This document shows, piece by piece, positions 35,621-38,650 of a stretch of DNA of 64,000 nt. The DNA comes from a virus. Within the stretch, counting starts at the first letter, position 1, and each line of letters starts with the position of its first letter. The notes below the pieces were generated by a model, which was not told the DNA's origin, did not search any database, and was given only the letters and a program-made list of their open reading frames with translations. The position numbers and the translations under genes are program-made. The DNA is taken from IMG/VR virus record IMGVR_UViG_3300043080_000191. The stretch is one strand, 5' to 3'.

Positions 35621-36031
35621 ATGGAAACTTTTTTACAAATATTAACAGATATTTTTGAAGTGTGTATTATTCCTTTACTTGGTATTTTAACTACATATTT
35701 AGTTAAATATATCCAAGCAAAGAATGAAGCTTTTAATGCAGAGTCAGATTCTGCATTAGCTAAAAAGTACACAGATATGCTAACAGATACAATTACTACT
35801 TGTGTAATTGCAACGAATCAAACTTATGTAGAAACTTTAAAACAGCAAGGCTCATTTGATAAGACTGCGCAAGAAGCAGCTTTTCAAGAAACCTTAACTG
35901 AAGTTTTAAAAATTTTAAATGATGATGCTAAAACTTATTTAAAAGAAGCATATGGCGATTTAGATGCTTATATCATTAATATGATTGAAGCAACAGTAAA
36001 TGAACAAAAAACTAAAAAGGGAACCTCTTAA
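35621..36031 (+). CDS. Membrane protein (136 aa) with a single N-terminal TM helix; holin-like candidate
   Basis: 'ETFLQILTDIFEVCIIPLLGILTTYLV' hydrophobic segment followed by a soluble helical tail. Last gene of the fiber operon. No endolysin gene in the window. Confidence 0.4.
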   Translation: METFLQILTDIFEVCIIPLLGILTTYLVKYIQAKNEAFNAESDSALAKKYTDMLTDTITTCVIATNQTYVETLKQQGSFDKTAQEAAFQETLTEVLKILNDDAKTYLKEAYGDLDAYIINMIEATVNEQKTKKGTS

Positions 36032-36052
36032 TTGAGGTTCCCTTATTTTTTT
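36019..36052 (+). terminator. Rho-independent terminator
   Basis: gggaacctcttaattgaggttccc + ttatttttttg. Confidence 0.85.
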
Positions 36053-36111
36053 GTTCATTTTTAACAAAAATCTATAATATATTTTTGTTCAAAGTATACA
36101 AAACATATAGC

Positions 36112-36129
36112 GTGTTAAACCGATCGGTT
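36112..36129. promoter_or_regulatory. Perfect 18-bp palindrome TTAAACCGATCGGTTTAA (with imperfect GTATACAAAA/TTTTGTATA flanks), candidate operator
   Basis: Seen directly in the 255-bp AT-rich intergenic region upstream of the accessory cassette. Confidence 0.4.
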
Positions 36130-36211
36130 TAATACTTTTGTATAAATTTTATAAAAGTATTTAAAATTTTTGAGAAAAGTTTATGCAACATTTCAGGGTT
36201 TTATTTTAAAA

Positions 36212-36240
36212 TTTTGCCCATTCAAAAATCAATATATAAT
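36212..36240 (+). promoter_or_regulatory. Putative sigma-A-like promoter for the accessory cassette (-10 TATAAT at 36235-36240, weak -35 TTTTGC)
   Basis: Consensus -10 hexamer 47 nt upstream of the ATG at 36288. Follows a terminator, so the cassette is an independent transcription unit. Confidence 0.35.
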
Positions 36241-36287
36241 GTAAGAAAGAGAGAAAAATTTTCTTACAGAAAGGAAGTATACTTTTT

Positions 36288-36746
36288 ATGTATCCTACAA
36301 ATAATAGCTATTATAACCAAATGCAACCTCAAACTCAATACTATCAAAATCAGATGCAGAGTCCTTCTTCAATGATGCGTCCTCAGATGATGGCGACTGT
36401 AAAAGGTAGACCTGTATCATCTATTGAAGAAGCGAGAGCTGCTACAATAGATTTTGATGGTTCGATTTTTTATTTCCCAGATTTGGCAAATAAAAAAATT
36501 TACACAAAGCAGATAAATATGGATGGCACAGCCACACTAAACATGTACGAATTGAAAGAAATGCCTGTTGAACCACCGTTGAATAGTTCTGCTTATGTAA
36601 CACGAGAAGAATTTGAGATAGCTATGACTCAATTAAAAAGTTTTTTAAGTCAACCTTCTACGGCATCGACGACCCCGATGAGCGAGCCGCAACCGCAAAA
36701 AGCTGAACAAGAAAAATCAAAAGAGCCATTAAACTTAAACTTTTAA
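36288..36746 (+). CDS. Hypothetical protein (152 aa) with Q/N/Y-rich N-terminus (YYNQMQPQTQYYQNQMQ)
   Basis: RBS gaaaggaag. Low-complexity N-terminus reminiscent of spore-coat proteins. No enzymatic motif. Confidence 0.5.
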   Translation: MYPTNNSYYNQMQPQTQYYQNQMQSPSSMMRPQMMATVKGRPVSSIEEARAATIDFDGSIFYFPDLANKKIYTKQINMDGTATLNMYELKEMPVEPPLNSSAYVTREEFEIAMTQLKSFLSQPSTASTTPMSEPQPQKAEQEKSKEPLNLNF

Positions 36747-36758
36747 GGAGGTAATATA

Positions 36759-36998
36759 ATGAATATTAATCCTATGCAGTTTATTCAATTAATTAGAAAT
36801 GGCGGAAACCCACAACAATTAATGATGAATCTTTTAAGCCAAATGCAGGGAACTCCTATGGGTAACAACCTCTTAAGTATGGCGCAAGCTAATGATACAA
36901 AAGGTATTGAACAATTAGCTAGAAATTTATGCCAACAGAGAGGTGTAGATTTTGACCAAGAATTTAGTAATTTTAAACAAATGCTTGGCCTCAGATAA
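36759..36998 (+). CDS. Hypothetical small protein (79 aa), Q/M/N-rich
   Basis: RBS taaggaggtaatata-ATG. Confidence 0.5.
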   Translation: MNINPMQFIQLIRNGGNPQQLMMNLLSQMQGTPMGNNLLSMAQANDTKGIEQLARNLCQQRGVDFDQEFSNFKQMLGLR

Positions 36999-37018
36999 TT
37001 TTAAAAGGAGGAACCAAT

Positions 37019-37735
37019 ATGTTTAATCAAGGTTCAGGATATTCATTATCAGATATTGCAGCTGCTTCTGGAAATCGTGGAGAAGCTGGCTGGACAGATG
37101 GCATGGGAGCTTGGTGGATTATAATCCTATTCTTATTCGTCTTTATGGGCGGAGGTTGGGGAGGCAACTGGGGTAATGGAGCTAATTCAGCTGCAACTCA
37201 GGGCGCCTTAACTAGAGCAGATTTAAGTCAAGACTTAAACTTCCAGAATGTAGAAAATGGTGTTAGAGGAGTTCAGCAAGGACTTTGTGATGGATTCTAT
37301 ACTAACAACACAACTCTATTGACCAATTTTGGTAACGTGCAACGTGATTTGTGTACAGGATTTAGTTCTGTTGCACAAGGTTTTAATACAGTAAACGCTA
37401 ACTTAGCTGATAATCGTTATGCAATGCAGTCTTGTTGCTGTGATACAAACCGCAATATAGATGCAGTTAGATATGATAATTCTCGAAATACTTGTGAAAT
37501 AACTCAAGCAATTAGAGAAGAAGCTGAACAAACAAGAGCTTTAATTAATGCTAACACAATGCAAGAGTTACGTGATAGATTAGAAGCTAAGAATAATGAG
37601 CTACAGTCAGCTAACTTCCAGTTATCTCAATGCGCTCAGAACGCTTACTTAGTAAATGAACTTCGTCCATGTCCAATTCCTGCATATTTGACGGGTAGTC
37701 CATATGCAGCTTATTCTAATGGATGTAGTTGTTAA
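37019..37735 (+). CDS. Membrane protein (238 aa): YjcZ/tiny-TM-like Gly/Trp-rich N-terminal TM segment followed by a Cys-rich (CCC, CxxC) domain
   Basis: 'GMGAWWIIILFLFVFMGGGWGGNWGNG' resembles the Bacillus/Clostridium sporulation-expressed tiny TM family. Later 'QSCCCDTNRN', 'CPIPAY...NGCSC'. Confidence 0.45.
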   Translation: MFNQGSGYSLSDIAAASGNRGEAGWTDGMGAWWIIILFLFVFMGGGWGGNWGNGANSAATQGALTRADLSQDLNFQNVENGVRGVQQGLCDGFYTNNTTLLTNFGNVQRDLCTGFSSVAQGFNTVNANLADNRYAMQSCCCDTNRNIDAVRYDNSRNTCEITQAIREEAEQTRALINANTMQELRDRLEAKNNELQSANFQLSQCAQNAYLVNELRPCPIPAYLTGSPYAAYSNGCSC

Positions 37736-37762
37736 GTAAATAAGTAAAGGAGATTTGTATTT

Positions 37763-38182
37763 ATGGAAATTACTGCGACAACAGCTCAAACAGTAGCAGC
37801 TAATCAAGATATATTATTTACGAATACTGCGGTTGAAGGTAACTGCAGTATTCTCCATAGAAGTGGAAGCGGGCTTGTTAATTTGCGCGGTCTAACGCAA
37901 CAATGCAGAGCTCGTTACAGAGTCACTTTTGGATGTAATATAGCAGTTCCAACAGGTGGCACAGCTGATTCAATCTCGGTAGCAATTACTATTGATGGAG
38001 AACCTATTGCTTCTTCAATGATGATTTCTACTCCTGGAGCAGTTGATGATTATAATTCAGTATCTGGCGCAATTTTTATTGATGTCCCAAAAGGATGCTG
38101 CTCTCAAGTTAGTATTAAAAATACTTCAACACAATCTATCTTAGTTCAAAATGCTAATTTAATTGTTGAAAGGGTGGCGTAA
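37763..38182 (+). CDS. Stand-alone BclA C-terminal domain (C1q/TNF-like jelly-roll) protein (139 aa), exosporium-protein-like, no collagen-like region
   Basis: Collinear similarity to the B. anthracis BclA CTD: 'FTNTAVEGN'~'FNTVGSQFG', 'ARYRVTF'~'GFYKITV', 'ITIDGEPIASSMMIS'~'IQVNGVPVPGTGSSLIS', C-terminal 'ANLIVERVA'~'ASIIIEKVA'. Cys-rich. Confidence 0.5.
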   Translation: MEITATTAQTVAANQDILFTNTAVEGNCSILHRSGSGLVNLRGLTQQCRARYRVTFGCNIAVPTGGTADSISVAITIDGEPIASSMMISTPGAVDDYNSVSGAIFIDVPKGCCSQVSIKNTSTQSILVQNANLIVERVA

Positions 38183-38608
38183 ATGAAAGATCTTAAAAGA
38201 ATGAAAAAAATGCTTATGGAACAAGTGGAAATGGAATTAGAAAATCCACAGTGCGCAGATACTAAAGAATTAGGCGAAGTTGTAGATATGATTAAAGATA
38301 TTGCTGAAACAATGTATTATTGCAGCATTGTAAAAGCAATGGAAGAATCAGATTCAGAAGAAATTATGACGCATCATGATGCCTATCAACCGCACACAAT
38401 GAAAGAAGATAGACCTATTGAAAAACATTATCACGAATATAAAGAAGTTAAAAAAATGAGTAATGACCCAATTCTTTCAATGCAACACCTTGAAGGCTAT
38501 ATCAATGAGCTTCAAAAAGATGTAATGGAAATGGCATCCACTGCATCTCCAGAAGAAAAACAACTGCTACAAAAGAAGATAGCTGTACTTGCTTCTAAAT
38601 TAGCATAA
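38183..38608 (+). CDS. Hypothetical helical, His-rich protein (141 aa; 'HHDAYQPH...KHYHEY')
   Basis: Start adjacent to the stop of the BclA-like gene (TAAATG). Last gene of the cassette. Confidence 0.5.
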   Translation: MKDLKRMKKMLMEQVEMELENPQCADTKELGEVVDMIKDIAETMYYCSIVKAMEESDSEEIMTHHDAYQPHTMKEDRPIEKHYHEYKEVKKMSNDPILSMQHLEGYINELQKDVMEMASTASPEEKQLLQKKIAVLASKLA

Positions 38609-38616
38609 AAAAATAA

Positions 38617-38650
38617 GGGAAGAACTTTTATAGTTCTTCCCATTTTTTTG
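38617..38650. terminator. Bidirectional rho-independent terminator between convergent + and - gene blocks
   Basis: aaaaaaataagggaagaacttttatagttcttcccatttttttg: stem flanked by an A-run and a T-run. Confidence 0.8.

What the first reader, a model, noticed from the sequence alone, without database searches (positions are those of the whole stretch)
36019..38650. Independently transcribed five-gene accessory cassette encoding spore-surface-like proteins (stand-alone BclA C-terminal domain, YjcZ-like tiny-TM/Cys-rich, Q/N-rich and His-rich proteins)
The cassette sits between the fiber operon and the convergent replication block. It is bracketed by two clear intrinsic terminators, with its own AT-rich promoter region and an 18-bp perfect palindrome upstream.

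It encodes:
(i) a 139-aa protein collinear with the BclA exosporium C-terminal TNF/C1q-like domain, ending ...LIVERVA like BclA ...IIIEKVA, but with no collagen-like stalk;
(ii) a 238-aa protein whose TM segment (GAWWIIILFLFVFMGGGWGGNWG) resembles the sporulation-expressed YjcZ/tiny-TM family, followed by a CCC/CxxC-rich domain;
(iii) a Q/N/Y-rich protein and a His-rich helical protein, compositions typical of spore-coat and exosporium proteins.

No classical endolysin is present, although one would be expected at this position. A phage carrying an exosporium/coat-like gene set could modify the host spore surface, or use these as virion decoration or host-range proteins. I do not know of this arrangement as a described system.
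Basis: partly seen in the sequence, partly recalled or inferred. Interest (0 to 1): 0.72.

Follow-up and report, generated by a model that had tools for sequence, protein, structure and literature searches.

The report
Widespread five-gene phage accessory operon
A separately transcribed five-gene operon in a large gut phage, built around a cysteine-rich membrane protein and a small protein with the BclA/C1q/TNF fold, is one copy of a very common phage module of unknown function that shows no link to spores.

Summary

The cassette is a collinear A-B-C-D-E module found in over 100 phage loci. C precedes D in about 121 of 125 loci. The C family has about 2,600 clusters at 50% identity and extends to crAss-like phages of non-sporulating Bacteroidota. 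D also occurs in a phage of non-sporulating Butyrivibrio.

The module sits at different genome junctions in different phages: after the holin or endolysin, next to an integrase, in early regions, or as an island in the head module. Eight small contigs start 8-16 nt after a TATAAT box and stop by the terminator, which suggests a dedicated mRNA. In TAG-recoded relatives the cassette has late-gene-like TAG density.

Best reading: an autonomous, late, membrane-anchored accessory complex acting on the cell envelope. The function is untested. The spore-surface interpretation is not supported.

The parts
35621..36031 (+). Holin gene, the last gene of the late fibre operon (context, not part of the cassette).
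   Evidence: phrog_13712 'holin', E = 6.4e-30. It lies upstream of the cassette in 40 related loci.
36017..36044 (.). Intrinsic terminator hairpin that ends the holin operon. It has an 11-bp stem with 6 GC pairs and T-runs on both strands.
   Evidence: An equivalent hairpin plus T-run follows the holin in most relatives (alignment A3).
36115..36132 (.). Perfect 18-bp palindrome, TTAAACCGATCGGTTTAA, followed by a T-run. It could be a weak second terminator or an operator. It was not seen in the diverged relatives that I aligned.
   Evidence: Sequence read directly. Flagged as terminator-like with 10 pairs, 3 of them GC. Absent from the other sequences in alignment A3.
36185..36245 (+). Cassette-specific promoter-like region. 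The consensus in relatives is TTTTGGnCAAA, about 10 nt, AAAT, about 17 nt, then TTTTCATATAATAATG. In the window it contains the -10 box TATAAT at 36235-36240 and only a weak -35.
   Evidence: Alignment of holin-to-A gaps from 11 phages. An nhmmer profile of the motif hits the window only here (E = 7.6e-5; next best 0.07). Sequence read directly.
36248..36256 (+). Shared 5' ends of eight independent small contigs that contain only the cassette. This is the presumed transcription start region.
   Evidence: L132, L133, L135, L136, L137, L146, L147 and L148 map from 36248, 36251, 36253 (five of them) or 36256 to 38335-38678.
36288..36746 (+). Gene A, 152 aa. It has a variable Q/N/Y/P-rich N-terminal tail and a conserved core (GRxVSSxxEARA...FDGS...IYTKQ...YEL...YVTREEF). 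No TM segment.
   Evidence: phrog_21718, E = 4.5e-7. Found in 104 of 126 loci with an iterated profile. Consensus. Core also present in six C. perfringens phages.
36759..36998 (+). Gene B, 79 aa. A small protein rich in Q, N, M and L with NPxQ(L/I) motifs; probably helical (inferred from composition, not predicted).
   Evidence: Family consensus and composition. Always lies between A and C.
37019..37735 (+). Gene C, 238 aa, the universal core of the module. It has one short hydrophobic anchor (WWIIILFLFVFM) flanked by G/W/N-rich segments, two long predicted helices, invariant Cys residues (GLCDGFY, CCC, C159, C-terminal CxC) and a Pro-rich tail (RPCPxPAYLT).
   Evidence: phrog_16490, E = 3.7e-31. 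7,007 clusters at 90% identity and 2,603 at 50% identity, with no domain fusions among the top 150. Alignment A2. Hydropathy. The crAss-like phage homologue scores hhalign probability 100%, E = 9e-42. The AF2 model is poor, pLDDT 51.
37763..38182 (+). Gene D, 139 aa. A stand-alone TNF/C1q/BclA-C-type jelly-roll with no signal peptide or stalk, and the most conserved member of the module.
38183..38608 (+). Gene E, 141 aa. Acidic (net charge -10); probably helical, inferred from sequence only. Its start codon abuts D's stop codon. Conserved motifs are ELGExIDMIKDLxEAxYYC and a C-terminal PEE...L..K...L..K. The His cluster is not conserved.
   Evidence: Follows D in 106 of 126 loci.
38617..38641 (.). 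Bidirectional intrinsic terminator shared with the convergent minus-strand gene 38652-39113.
   Evidence: Contig L133 ends at 38619, at the foot of the hairpin.
38652..39113 (-). Convergent gene for a 153-aa protein with an N-terminal hydrophobic segment and coiled-coil-type weak matches (context). Together with RuvC (39187-39705) it shares the high TAG density of the cassette in recoded relatives.

Best explanation
The cassette is an autonomous operon with its own promoter, one mRNA of about 2.4 kb and its own terminator. It carries a mobile, very widespread five-gene phage module.

Proposed mechanism:
1. Protein C is made late in infection and anchors in the host cytoplasmic membrane through its single short hydrophobic segment.
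2. Its long helical, Cys-bearing domain forms a stalk.
3. Protein D, presumably a trimer like other TNF/C1q-fold proteins, associates with C. Together they give an anchor-stalk-jelly-roll-head assembly comparable in layout to type II membrane TNF ligands, but split over two genes.
4. A, B and E are soluble partners for assembly or regulation.
5. The complex acts on the envelope of the infected cell at the end of the cycle, either modulating lysis or holin timing, or blocking re-infection. It is neither a spore-surface set nor a host-range fibre.

Shown: the operon structure, the conservation and gene order, the mobility of the module, the fold of D, the hydrophobic anchor in C, and the late-gene-like TAG pattern in relatives.

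Inferred: membrane insertion and topology of C, trimerisation of D, C-D contact, the roles of A, B and E, and the envelope/lysis-stage function.
For: OPERON
- Terminators flank the cassette, and the genes are tightly spaced with D and E abutting.
- The promoter-like motif is conserved in relatives and unique within the window.
- Eight contigs from one JGI sample series, covering two strain variants, start at 36248-36256 and end by the terminator. Other contigs of that series end at the foot of another strong terminator, 30636-30667.

FUNCTIONAL UNIT
- Gene order A-B-C-D-E holds in every locus examined. Counts out of 126 loci: A 104, C 122, D 125, E 106.
- C lies immediately upstream of D in 121 of 125 loci.

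MOBILITY
The module is found in five different settings:
- after the holin in the window's lineage;
- after the endolysin/holin and before the integrase in Ceridwen, Dulem virus 33 and prophages;
- in early regions of C. perfringens phages and Dulem virus 39;
- as an island between the portal/minor-capsid and scaffold/capsid genes in phages of about 45 kb;
- after the holin and LysB-like genes in a crAss-like phage.

MEMBRANE ANCHOR
Only C has a TM-grade hydrophobic segment.

LATE EXPRESSION
- In 40 TAG-recoded relatives, in-frame TAG per 1,000 codons is 5-28 in A-E, 8.8 in the holin and 23.6 in RuvC. It is 0.9-3.7 in dUTPase, NrdG, NrdD and other replication genes. The premise comes from 10.1101/2021.08.26.457843.
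- Cassette contigs co-occur with late structural-gene contigs in the same samples.

NOT A RECEPTOR-BINDING PROTEIN
D averages 62% identity across phages whose fibre genes are unalignable; the 1,407-aa fibre protein has hits in only 4 of 126 loci.

LINK TO LYSIS
Holin or endolysin genes are the most frequent neighbours across unrelated phage types.
Against: - No experiment and no homologue of known function supports any activity. Pfam, NCBIfam, PADLOC and PDB sequence searches are all negative.
- The AF2 model of C is unusable (pLDDT 51).
- C's hydrophobic core is only about 12 residues long and its flanking charges are too sparse to fix a topology. If the large domain faces outward, D, which has no signal peptide, could not reach it before lysis.
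- C's conserved tail persists in phages that lack D, namely C. perfringens phages and the crAss-like phage. So the tail cannot be a D-specific docking site.
- In some phages the module is far from the lysis genes, in early regions or within the head module.
- I could not verify that the small JGI contigs come from RNA.
- TAG density is also non-zero in the replication genes, so the timing argument is statistical rather than absolute.
Confidence: 0.4

Rival explanations
1. Virion accessory proteins. D would be a trimeric decoration or adhesin knob on the head or tail. C would be a hydrophobic particle protein, for example one that inserts into a membrane during ejection. A, B and E would be assembly chaperones.
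For: - The TAG pattern is late-gene-like.
- Cassette contigs co-occur with structural-gene contigs in the same samples.
- The cassette lies at the end of the fibre block in this phage, next to structural genes in the crAss-like phage, and inside the head module in phages of about 45 kb.
- E directly follows D, as fibre chaperones often follow their fibre gene (background knowledge).
- Conserved cysteines could harden a particle once it is released into an oxidising environment (inference).
Against: - The cassette has its own promoter and terminator outside the structural operon.
- It lies in early or lysogeny-proximal regions in other phages.
- D is much more conserved than any fibre, and across phages of about 40 to 176 kb whose fibre genes are unalignable. 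That is atypical for a receptor-binding or capsid-fitting protein.
- D is tightly coupled to a protein with a membrane-type anchor.
- None of the five proteins hits a PHROG structural category.
Confidence: 0.2
2. Moron for lysogenic conversion or superinfection exclusion. The cassette would be expressed independently of the lytic programme, including from prophages, and would place a membrane complex that blocks DNA entry or adsorption by other phages, or otherwise benefits the host.
For: - It has the classic moron anatomy of its own promoter plus terminator.
- In temperate relatives it lies between the lysis genes and the integrase or prophage end.
- It occupies different junctions in different phages.
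- Known Gram-positive exclusion proteins are small membrane-anchored proteins (background knowledge).
Against: - The window's phage shows no lysogeny genes in 64 kb, and its replication block is of the virulent type.
- In 40 TAG-recoded relatives the cassette cannot be translated in an uninfected or lysogenic cell using the standard code.
- D and C are strongly conserved across phages of different phyla, whereas exclusion proteins usually diverge with their targets (inference).
- No PADLOC match.
Confidence: 0.2
3. One reading: a phage-borne set resembling exosporium or spore-coat proteins that remodels the host spore surface.
For: - C is Cys-rich, as are ExsY, CotY and CdeC (background knowledge; composition only).
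- Many of the likely hosts are Clostridia.
Against: - The C family occurs in crAss-like phages, and C plus D occur in a Butyrivibrio phage. These hosts do not sporulate.
- There is no profile-level similarity to any spore protein.
- The -10 box is sigma-A-like (TATAAT) and fits neither the sigmaK nor the sigmaE -10 consensus as I recall them (sequence read directly).
- Neighbourhoods contain no sporulation genes among the frequent families.
- TAG recoding ties translation to late lytic growth.
- The His-rich and YjcZ arguments fail.
Confidence: 0.03
4. Non-canonical lysis effector. In phages of this lineage the cassette would replace the missing endolysin and directly breach the wall or membrane.
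For: - The holin is followed by the cassette, and no lysin domain was detected in the window.
- The C homologue sits beside the holin and a LysB-like gene in a crAss-like phage.
Against: - Only 64 kb of a genome of at least 110 kb was examined, so an endolysin may lie elsewhere.
- Ceridwen, Dulem virus 33, the C. perfringens phages and the prophages carry the module together with ordinary endolysins.
- None of the five proteins has a catalytic motif or enzyme-family match.
Confidence: 0.05

Closest known systems
C-terminal domains of BclA and F-BclA (Bacillus exosporium nap and F-ENA tip fibrillum)
   Different: D has no collagen-like stalk and no exosporium-targeting N-terminal domain. It gives no Pfam hit and no profile-level similarity. 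It is encoded by phages, including phages of non-sporulating hosts, and is paired with a membrane protein.
ExsFA/BxpB (a stand-alone TNF-fold protein of the exosporium basal layer that anchors BclA)
   Different: There is no detectable sequence similarity. The partners differ: BclA's N-terminal domain and ExsY for BxpB, the TM protein C here. D's context is phage, not sporulation.
Type II membrane TNF-superfamily ligands such as EDA-A1
   Different: Here the anchor/stalk and the head are separate gene products, and their contact is only inferred. D has no export signal. TNF ligands are eukaryotic signalling proteins, a role with no counterpart here.
Phage morons, meaning accessory cassettes with their own promoter and terminator at module junctions
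   Same: The cassette has its own promoter-like element and terminators. It sits at junctions such as lysis-to-integrase or the end of the late operon, in different places in different phages.
   Different: It is far more conserved and widespread than typical morons. It has five collinear genes, appears to be a fixed feature of a whole lineage of large virulent-type phages, and looks late-expressed rather than prophage-expressed.
Accessory membrane proteins of phage lysis cassettes (antiholins, i-spanins/LysB, XhlA-type proteins)
   Same: C has a single N-proximal membrane anchor plus a long helical domain with conserved cysteines. It often lies next to the holin or endolysin, and beside a LysB-like gene in a crAss-like phage.
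   Different: C matches no lysis family. It occurs in monoderm hosts, where spanins are unnecessary. It is sometimes distant from the lysis genes and is accompanied by four soluble partners.
PHROG families 16490, 9288, 20016 and 21718, and the 'BclA protein' annotations in gut-virome contigs
   Same: C, D and A are members of these families. Stand-alone D-like proteins of 130-145 aa in gut Siphoviridae, Myoviridae and Podoviridae contigs are the best BFVD matches, and two of them are already labelled 'BclA protein'.
   Different: Those entries are unannotated or auto-named single proteins. I found no description of the five-gene operon, its C-D coupling, its mobility or its transcription.

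Membership tests
BclA C-terminal domain family (exosporium collagen-like glycoprotein) | TNF/C1q-like all-beta jelly-roll fold | tested here: met
BclA C-terminal domain family (exosporium collagen-like glycoprotein) | Sequence match to the family profile or to BclA itself | tested here: not met
   No Pfam family at E <= 1. The D-family profile against PDB sequences gives no BclA or ExsFA hit. hhalign against the true BclA CTD gives probability 1.3%.
BclA C-terminal domain family (exosporium collagen-like glycoprotein) | Collagen-like GXX repeat stalk and N-terminal exosporium-targeting region | tested here: not met
   D is 139 aa and the jelly-roll starts at residue 2; there are no repeats.
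BclA C-terminal domain family (exosporium collagen-like glycoprotein) | Homotrimer | not testable with these tools
   No multimer prediction was available. Trimerisation is inferred from the fold only.
BclA C-terminal domain family (exosporium collagen-like glycoprotein) | Encoded and expressed as part of the sporulation programme of a spore-former | tested here: not met
   All contexts are phage. Carriers include a Butyrivibrio phage. The -10 box is TATAAT.
YjcZ / tiny-TM sporulation protein family | Match to the family models, and tiny size (tens of residues) | tested here: not met
   NCBIfam and Pfam give no such hit for C at E <= 1. C is 238 aa with a large conserved helical Cys-bearing domain.
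C1q / TNF superfamily | Jelly-roll fold with C1q/TNF topology | tested here: met
C1q / TNF superfamily | Sequence-profile membership (Pfam C1q or TNF models) | tested here: not met
   No Pfam hit for D at E <= 1.
Phage moron (autonomous accessory cassette) | Own promoter and terminator, separate from the neighbouring operon | tested here: met
   Terminators. Motif conserved in relatives and unique in the window. Contig 5' ends at 36248-36256 and 3' ends by 38678. The RNA origin of those contigs is unverified.
Phage moron (autonomous accessory cassette) | Variable genomic location or patchy distribution among phages | tested here: met
   Five distinct contexts were found.
Phage moron (autonomous accessory cassette) | Expression from the prophage or independently of the lytic programme | tested here: inconclusive
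   Position next to the integrase in temperate relatives argues for it. In-frame TAG in recoded relatives, and co-occurrence with late-gene contigs, argue for late lytic expression.
Phage lysis cassette (holin, antiholin, spanin, endolysin) | Match to a known lysis protein family or enzyme domain | tested here: not met
   Only the upstream gene is a holin. A-E match PHROGs of unknown function or none, and no Pfam lysin domain.
Phage lysis cassette (holin, antiholin, spanin, endolysin) | Adjacency to holin or endolysin genes | tested here: inconclusive
   Adjacent in the window's lineage (40 loci), Ceridwen, Dulem virus 33, the crAss-like phage and prophages. Not adjacent in C. perfringens phages, Dulem virus 39 or the ~45 kb siphophages.
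Anti-phage defence systems (PADLOC) | Match to any defence-protein model | tested here: not met
   No hit at E <= 0.01 for A-E; the only weak hit has E = 0.05.

The most novel reading that the evidence does not exclude
C and its small beta-protein partner (D here) form a previously unrecognised, split, membrane-anchored assembly resembling a TNF ligand. It would be shared by thousands of gut phages, from Clostridia phages to crAss-like phages, and would represent a new class of late envelope effector, for example a lysis-timing or exclusion device. A, B and E would be its dedicated assembly factors.
Probability: 0.25. Interest if true: 0.75.

Novelty: new variant of a known kind. Interest (0 to 1): 0.55.

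Why it matters
The C and D families are among the larger uncharacterised phage protein families in gut metagenomes. C has about 2,600 clusters at 50% identity and D has over 4,000 at 90% identity. They travel as a fixed five-gene operon that moves between unrelated phage types, and C is also found in phages of a different bacterial phylum.

A conserved, separately transcribed, probably late, membrane-linked module of unknown function in such abundant phages is a concrete target for experiments. Isolated carriers exist: Butyrivibrio phage Ceridwen and several C. perfringens phages.

The work also shows that a BclA-like fold in a phage is not evidence of spore biology. That matters for the automatic 'BclA protein' labels already present in virome records.

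Tried and rejected
- Pfam, NCBIfam and PADLOC scans of A-E gave nothing above threshold. The YjcZ/tiny-TM idea was rejected on that basis.
- PDB sequence searches with A, D and E, and with the C and D family profiles, gave only chance-level hits.
- hhalign of the D family against the authentic BclA CTD was not significant.
- The AF2 model of C had pLDDT 51 and was unusable for fold search.
- The AFDB fold library was unavailable.
- Megablast of the region against phage genomes found no close relative.
- Rfam and tRNA scans of the whole window were negative, so the conserved 5' region is not a known riboswitch or RNA.
- I tested whether the crAss-like neighbours gp41, gp42, gp44 and gp45 correspond to A, B, D and E. 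They do not.
- I tested whether the genes following C in the C. perfringens and crAss-like phages are related to each other. They are not.
- I considered a two-point Cys 'staple' of a helical hairpin in C (C90-C159 and C112-C139). I dropped it because C112 and C215 are not conserved across the family.
- I considered that B resembles STI1/DP-type Met/Gln-rich TM-segment chaperones. This is from memory only, with no Pfam support, so it stays a lead.
- The published TAG-recoded 'Phassvirus' group (PMC10607447) was not among the C or D hits, so it was not pursued.
- Literature searches for phage BclA/C1q proteins and for the isolated carrier phages found no functional data.

Full report
WHAT IS IN THE SEQUENCE

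The five plus-strand ORFs exist exactly as described:
- A, 36288-36746, 152 aa
- B, 36759-36998, 79 aa
- C, 37019-37735, 238 aa
- D, 37763-38182, 139 aa
- E, 38183-38608, 141 aa

They are separated by 12, 20, 27 and 0 nt, and D's TAA directly abuts E's ATG. The gene just upstream (35621-36031) is a holin (phrog_13712, E = 6e-30).

An 11-bp GC-rich hairpin with a T-run (36017-36044) follows the holin, and a 10-bp one (38617-38641) follows E. The region holds six terminator-like sites against 2.3 +/- 1.6 in shuffled sequence. The 18-bp perfect palindrome is at 36115-36132.

Downstream, on the other strand, lies a replication and nucleotide-metabolism block. It contains RuvC, dUTPase, NrdG, NrdD, guanylate kinase, a DnaE gene split by GIY-YIG endonuclease genes, an SF1 helicase, RecJ, DnaB and an AAA_24 protein. 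It has no integrase.

No lysin domain was found in any ORF I scanned across the window. The window covers only 64 kb of a genome of at least 110 kb.

THE BclA CLAIM

Dozens of C1q/TNF domains follow, along with several phage fibre tips and knobs (cyanophage A-1(L), PRD1 P5, Sf6, TM4, lactococcal phage 1358).

At the sequence level nothing links D to BclA. There is no Pfam hit at E <= 1. The D-family profile finds no BclA or ExsFA chain in the PDB. hhalign against the authentic BclA CTD (sequence verified) gives a probability of 1.3%.

In the viral structure library, the best matches are stand-alone proteins of 130-145 aa from gut phage contigs. Two of them are already auto-named 'BclA protein'.

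THE OTHER COMPOSITIONAL CLAIMS

C matches no YjcZ or tiny-TM model. It is a conserved 238-aa protein with these features:
- one short hydrophobic segment, WWIIILFLFVFM, flanked by G/W/N-rich stretches;
- two long predicted helices;
- invariant cysteines (GLCDGFY, CCC, one further Cys, and a C-terminal CxC);
- a Pro-rich tail.

Its AF2 model was too poor to use (pLDDT 51).

The His cluster in E is not conserved; the family averages 2.3% His. In A, the conserved part is a globular core. Its Q/N-rich tail shows almost no conserved positions.

A CONSERVED, COLLINEAR, MOBILE MODULE

D has 4,027 homologous clusters at 90% identity and C has 7,007. An exhaustive profile search finds 2,603 C-family clusters at 50% identity. 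The 150 best are all stand-alone proteins of 109-302 aa with no domain fusions.

I fetched 126 loci around D or C homologues from genome bins, IMG/VR and annotated phages. Results:
- phmmer finds C in 121 of the 125 loci that have D, and C lies just upstream of D.
- Iterated profiles find A in 104 loci, B in 44, C in 122, D in 125 and E in 106.
- Every locus fits the order A-B-C-D-E.
- D is the best conserved member, at 62% mean identity to the window copy. A, C and E are at 37-39%.

The module sits in different places in different phages:
1. In the window's own lineage of 65-176 kb phages it follows the holin and faces the convergent RuvC/dUTPase block.
2. In Butyrivibrio phage Ceridwen, Dulem virus 33 and prophages in genome bins it lies after the endolysin/holin and near the integrase or prophage end.
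3. In six C. perfringens siphophages an A-B-C version without D lies in the early region after the antirepressor.
4. In Dulem virus 39 it follows the replication genes.
5. In siphophages of about 45 kb it forms an island, with minus-strand HTH genes, between the portal/minor-capsid and scaffold/capsid genes.
6. A crAss-like phage (Suoliviridae) has a clear C homologue (hhalign probability 100%, E = 9e-42) after its holin and LysB-like genes. Its neighbours there are unrelated to A, B, D or E.

C is therefore the universal core of the module. D and E are a widespread add-on in phages assigned mostly to Clostridia.

INDEPENDENT TRANSCRIPTION

The gap between the holin and A (163-330 nt) is conserved as a gap in many relatives. 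It has a common layout: a terminator hairpin, then a shared motif (TTTTGGnCAAA ... AAAT ... TTTTCATATAATAATG), then the ribosome-binding site. A profile of that motif matches the window only at 36185-36245 (E = 7.6e-5), so it is specific to the cassette rather than a general promoter class. In the window it contains a TATAAT box at 36235-36240 with a weak -35.

The strongest evidence comes from eight small contigs (2,083-2,426 bp) from one JGI sample series (Ga0494078-90). They represent two strain variants and each contains only the five genes. Their 5' ends fall at 36248, 36251, 36253 (five contigs) and 36256. Their 3' ends are ragged, between 38335 and 38678, and one stops at the foot of the terminator.

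In the same series, four contigs carrying the late 643-aa and 195-aa genes all end at 30633-30640. That is the foot of a strong 14-bp terminator at 30636-30667. Contig ends that track promoters and terminators are what RNA assemblies produce, but I could not verify the sample type. The exact holin and the 190-aa protein upstream were not found in that series. The dUTPase-RuvC region appeared as two short contigs.

TIMING

Forty related loci carry in-frame stop codons in their D homologue. All 52 are TAG, so these phages are TAG-recoded; the window itself uses the standard code.

In those loci the in-frame TAG density per 1,000 aligned codons is as follows:
- A 18.2, B 28.5, C 5.2, D 9.3, E 8.7
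- holin 8.8, RuvC 23.6, the convergent 153-aa protein 17.7
- dUTPase, NrdG, NrdD and four further replication-block genes 0.9-3.7

Borges et al. (10.1101/2021.08.26.457843) report that recoded stops concentrate in late structural and lysis genes. They argue that such genes cannot be translated until the code switch. On that premise the cassette behaves as a late gene set in those relatives. This also argues against expression from a dormant prophage or in a developing spore.

WHAT IT PROBABLY DOES

No member matches a family of known function in Pfam, NCBIfam, PHROGs, PADLOC or the PDB.

The facts that constrain function are these:
- Only C has a membrane-grade hydrophobic segment, and none of the five proteins has a signal peptide (sequence).
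- C and D are almost always coupled.
- D is strongly conserved across phages whose fibres are unrelated, which argues against a receptor-binding role.
- C spans phages of monoderm Clostridia and of Bacteroidota, so its target must be generic.
- Holin and endolysin genes are the most frequent neighbours, but not invariably.
- The unit is autonomous and mobile.

My best-supported model, at about 40%, is a late, membrane-anchored complex. C would be the anchor and stalk, D a presumably trimeric jelly-roll partner, and A, B and E soluble helpers. The complex would act on the envelope at the end of infection, in lysis timing or control, or in exclusion.

The steps from 'membrane anchor' onward are inferred. 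One point against the model is that C's conserved tail persists where D is absent, so the tail is not a D-specific docking site.

The rivals are:
- virion accessory proteins, about 20%;
- a prophage-expressed conversion or exclusion moron, about 20%;
- a non-canonical lysin, about 5%;
- the spore-surface idea, about 3%.

COMPARISON WITH KNOWN SYSTEMS, AND NOVELTY

D works like a BclA-C, ExsFA or C1q head in fold only. It fails the other defining features of the BclA family: the profile match, the collagen stalk and the sporulation context. It should not be filed as BclA.

The cassette has the anatomy of a moron, but it is unusually conserved, multi-gene and apparently late-expressed. The individual families already exist as PHROGs of unknown function, and as a few auto-named virome proteins.

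I found no description of the operon, its coupling, its mobility or its transcription. I rate it a new variant of a known kind, namely an accessory phage cassette carrying a C1q/TNF-fold protein. Interest is moderate because the module is so abundant and is experimentally tractable in isolated phages.

Noticed in passing
L004-L009, L011, L013-L015, L017, L019, L020, L022-L024, L035, L048-L051, L053-L058, L069, L073, L077, L080, L083, L084, L086, L090-L092, L094, L113, L124 (D homologue at about 10001-10420 in most): Forty related phage loci have in-frame stops in conserved genes. All 52 of those in the D homologue are TAG and none is TAA or TGA, so many close relatives of this standard-code phage are TAG-recoded. 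TAG density is several-fold higher in the holin, the cassette, the 153-aa gene and RuvC than in the replication genes.
   Followed up: yes
window 44735-50182 (minus strand): The DNA polymerase III alpha (DnaE) gene is split into three ORFs: PHP plus NTPase at 48806-50182, NTPase plus finger at 47302-48429, and HHH_6 at 44735-45934. A GIY-YIG endonuclease gene (46256-47140) lies between two of the pieces, and there is a further GIY-YIG gene at 58115-58840. This looks like intron or homing-endonuclease invasion. A relative (L004) has NrdD interrupted by intein and HNH genes.
   Followed up: partly
window 30636-30667: A strong 14-bp terminator hairpin lies after the 195-aa gene, inside the late block and upstream of the 1,407-aa fibre gene. 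Four small contigs from the Ga04940xx series end at its foot (30633-30640). This suggests the fibre, 190-aa and holin genes form a separate transcription unit from the genes upstream.
   Followed up: partly
window 35606 boundary; L047:1-7850 compared with L047:7850-18643: An IMG/VR relative is 94-97% identical to the window from the holin start (35606) onward, through the cassette and the replication block. Upstream of that point it is unalignable. The fibre module has therefore been swapped at the holin boundary between strains.
   Followed up: partly
window 20196-27746 (+): A 2,516-aa protein carries BspA-type leucine-rich repeats near its C-terminus (LRR_5, E = 4e-13). The other giant plus-strand proteins (1,772, 1,814 and 1,407 aa) have no Pfam match at all.
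   Followed up: no
window 38652-39113 (-): The convergent neighbour encodes a 153-aa protein with an N-terminal hydrophobic segment and coiled-coil-type weak matches; relatives show faint Syntaxin hits. It shares the bidirectional terminator with the cassette and has late-like TAG density in recoded relatives. It could be another late membrane protein.
   Followed up: partly
L101:14550-15191; L129:8760-9416; one of the genome-bin loci in alignment A4: A DUF4417 gene recurs a few kb downstream of the cassette in unrelated phage types: the ~45 kb siphophages, Dulem virus 39 and one prophage. The link could be coincidental or functional.
   Followed up: no
window 36190-36203 and the equivalent positions in L013, L052, L059, L060, L070 and L083: A conserved TTTTGGnCAAA element lies about 40 nt upstream of the -10 box of the cassette promoter, where the -35 is weak. 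It may be a binding site for a phage or host activator. The window's own copy is degenerate (TTTCAGGGTTTT).
   Followed up: partly
L157 (window 40310-38867) and L158 (window 40507-39151): In the same sample series, a contig covering dUTPase, RuvC and the 153-aa gene starts 33 nt upstream of the dUTPase start codon, inside the 3' end of the preceding 82-aa gene. This may mark an internal promoter or an RNA-processing site in the minus-strand block.
   Followed up: no
L032-L046 and other genome-bin loci: Contigs carrying the module are binned into MAGs labelled Methanobrevibacter, Akkermansia, Alistipes, Muribaculaceae and Anaeroplasmatales as well as Clostridia. Several are 148-176 kb and look like whole phage genomes. 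MAG taxonomy is therefore unreliable as a host assignment for these phages.
   Followed up: no
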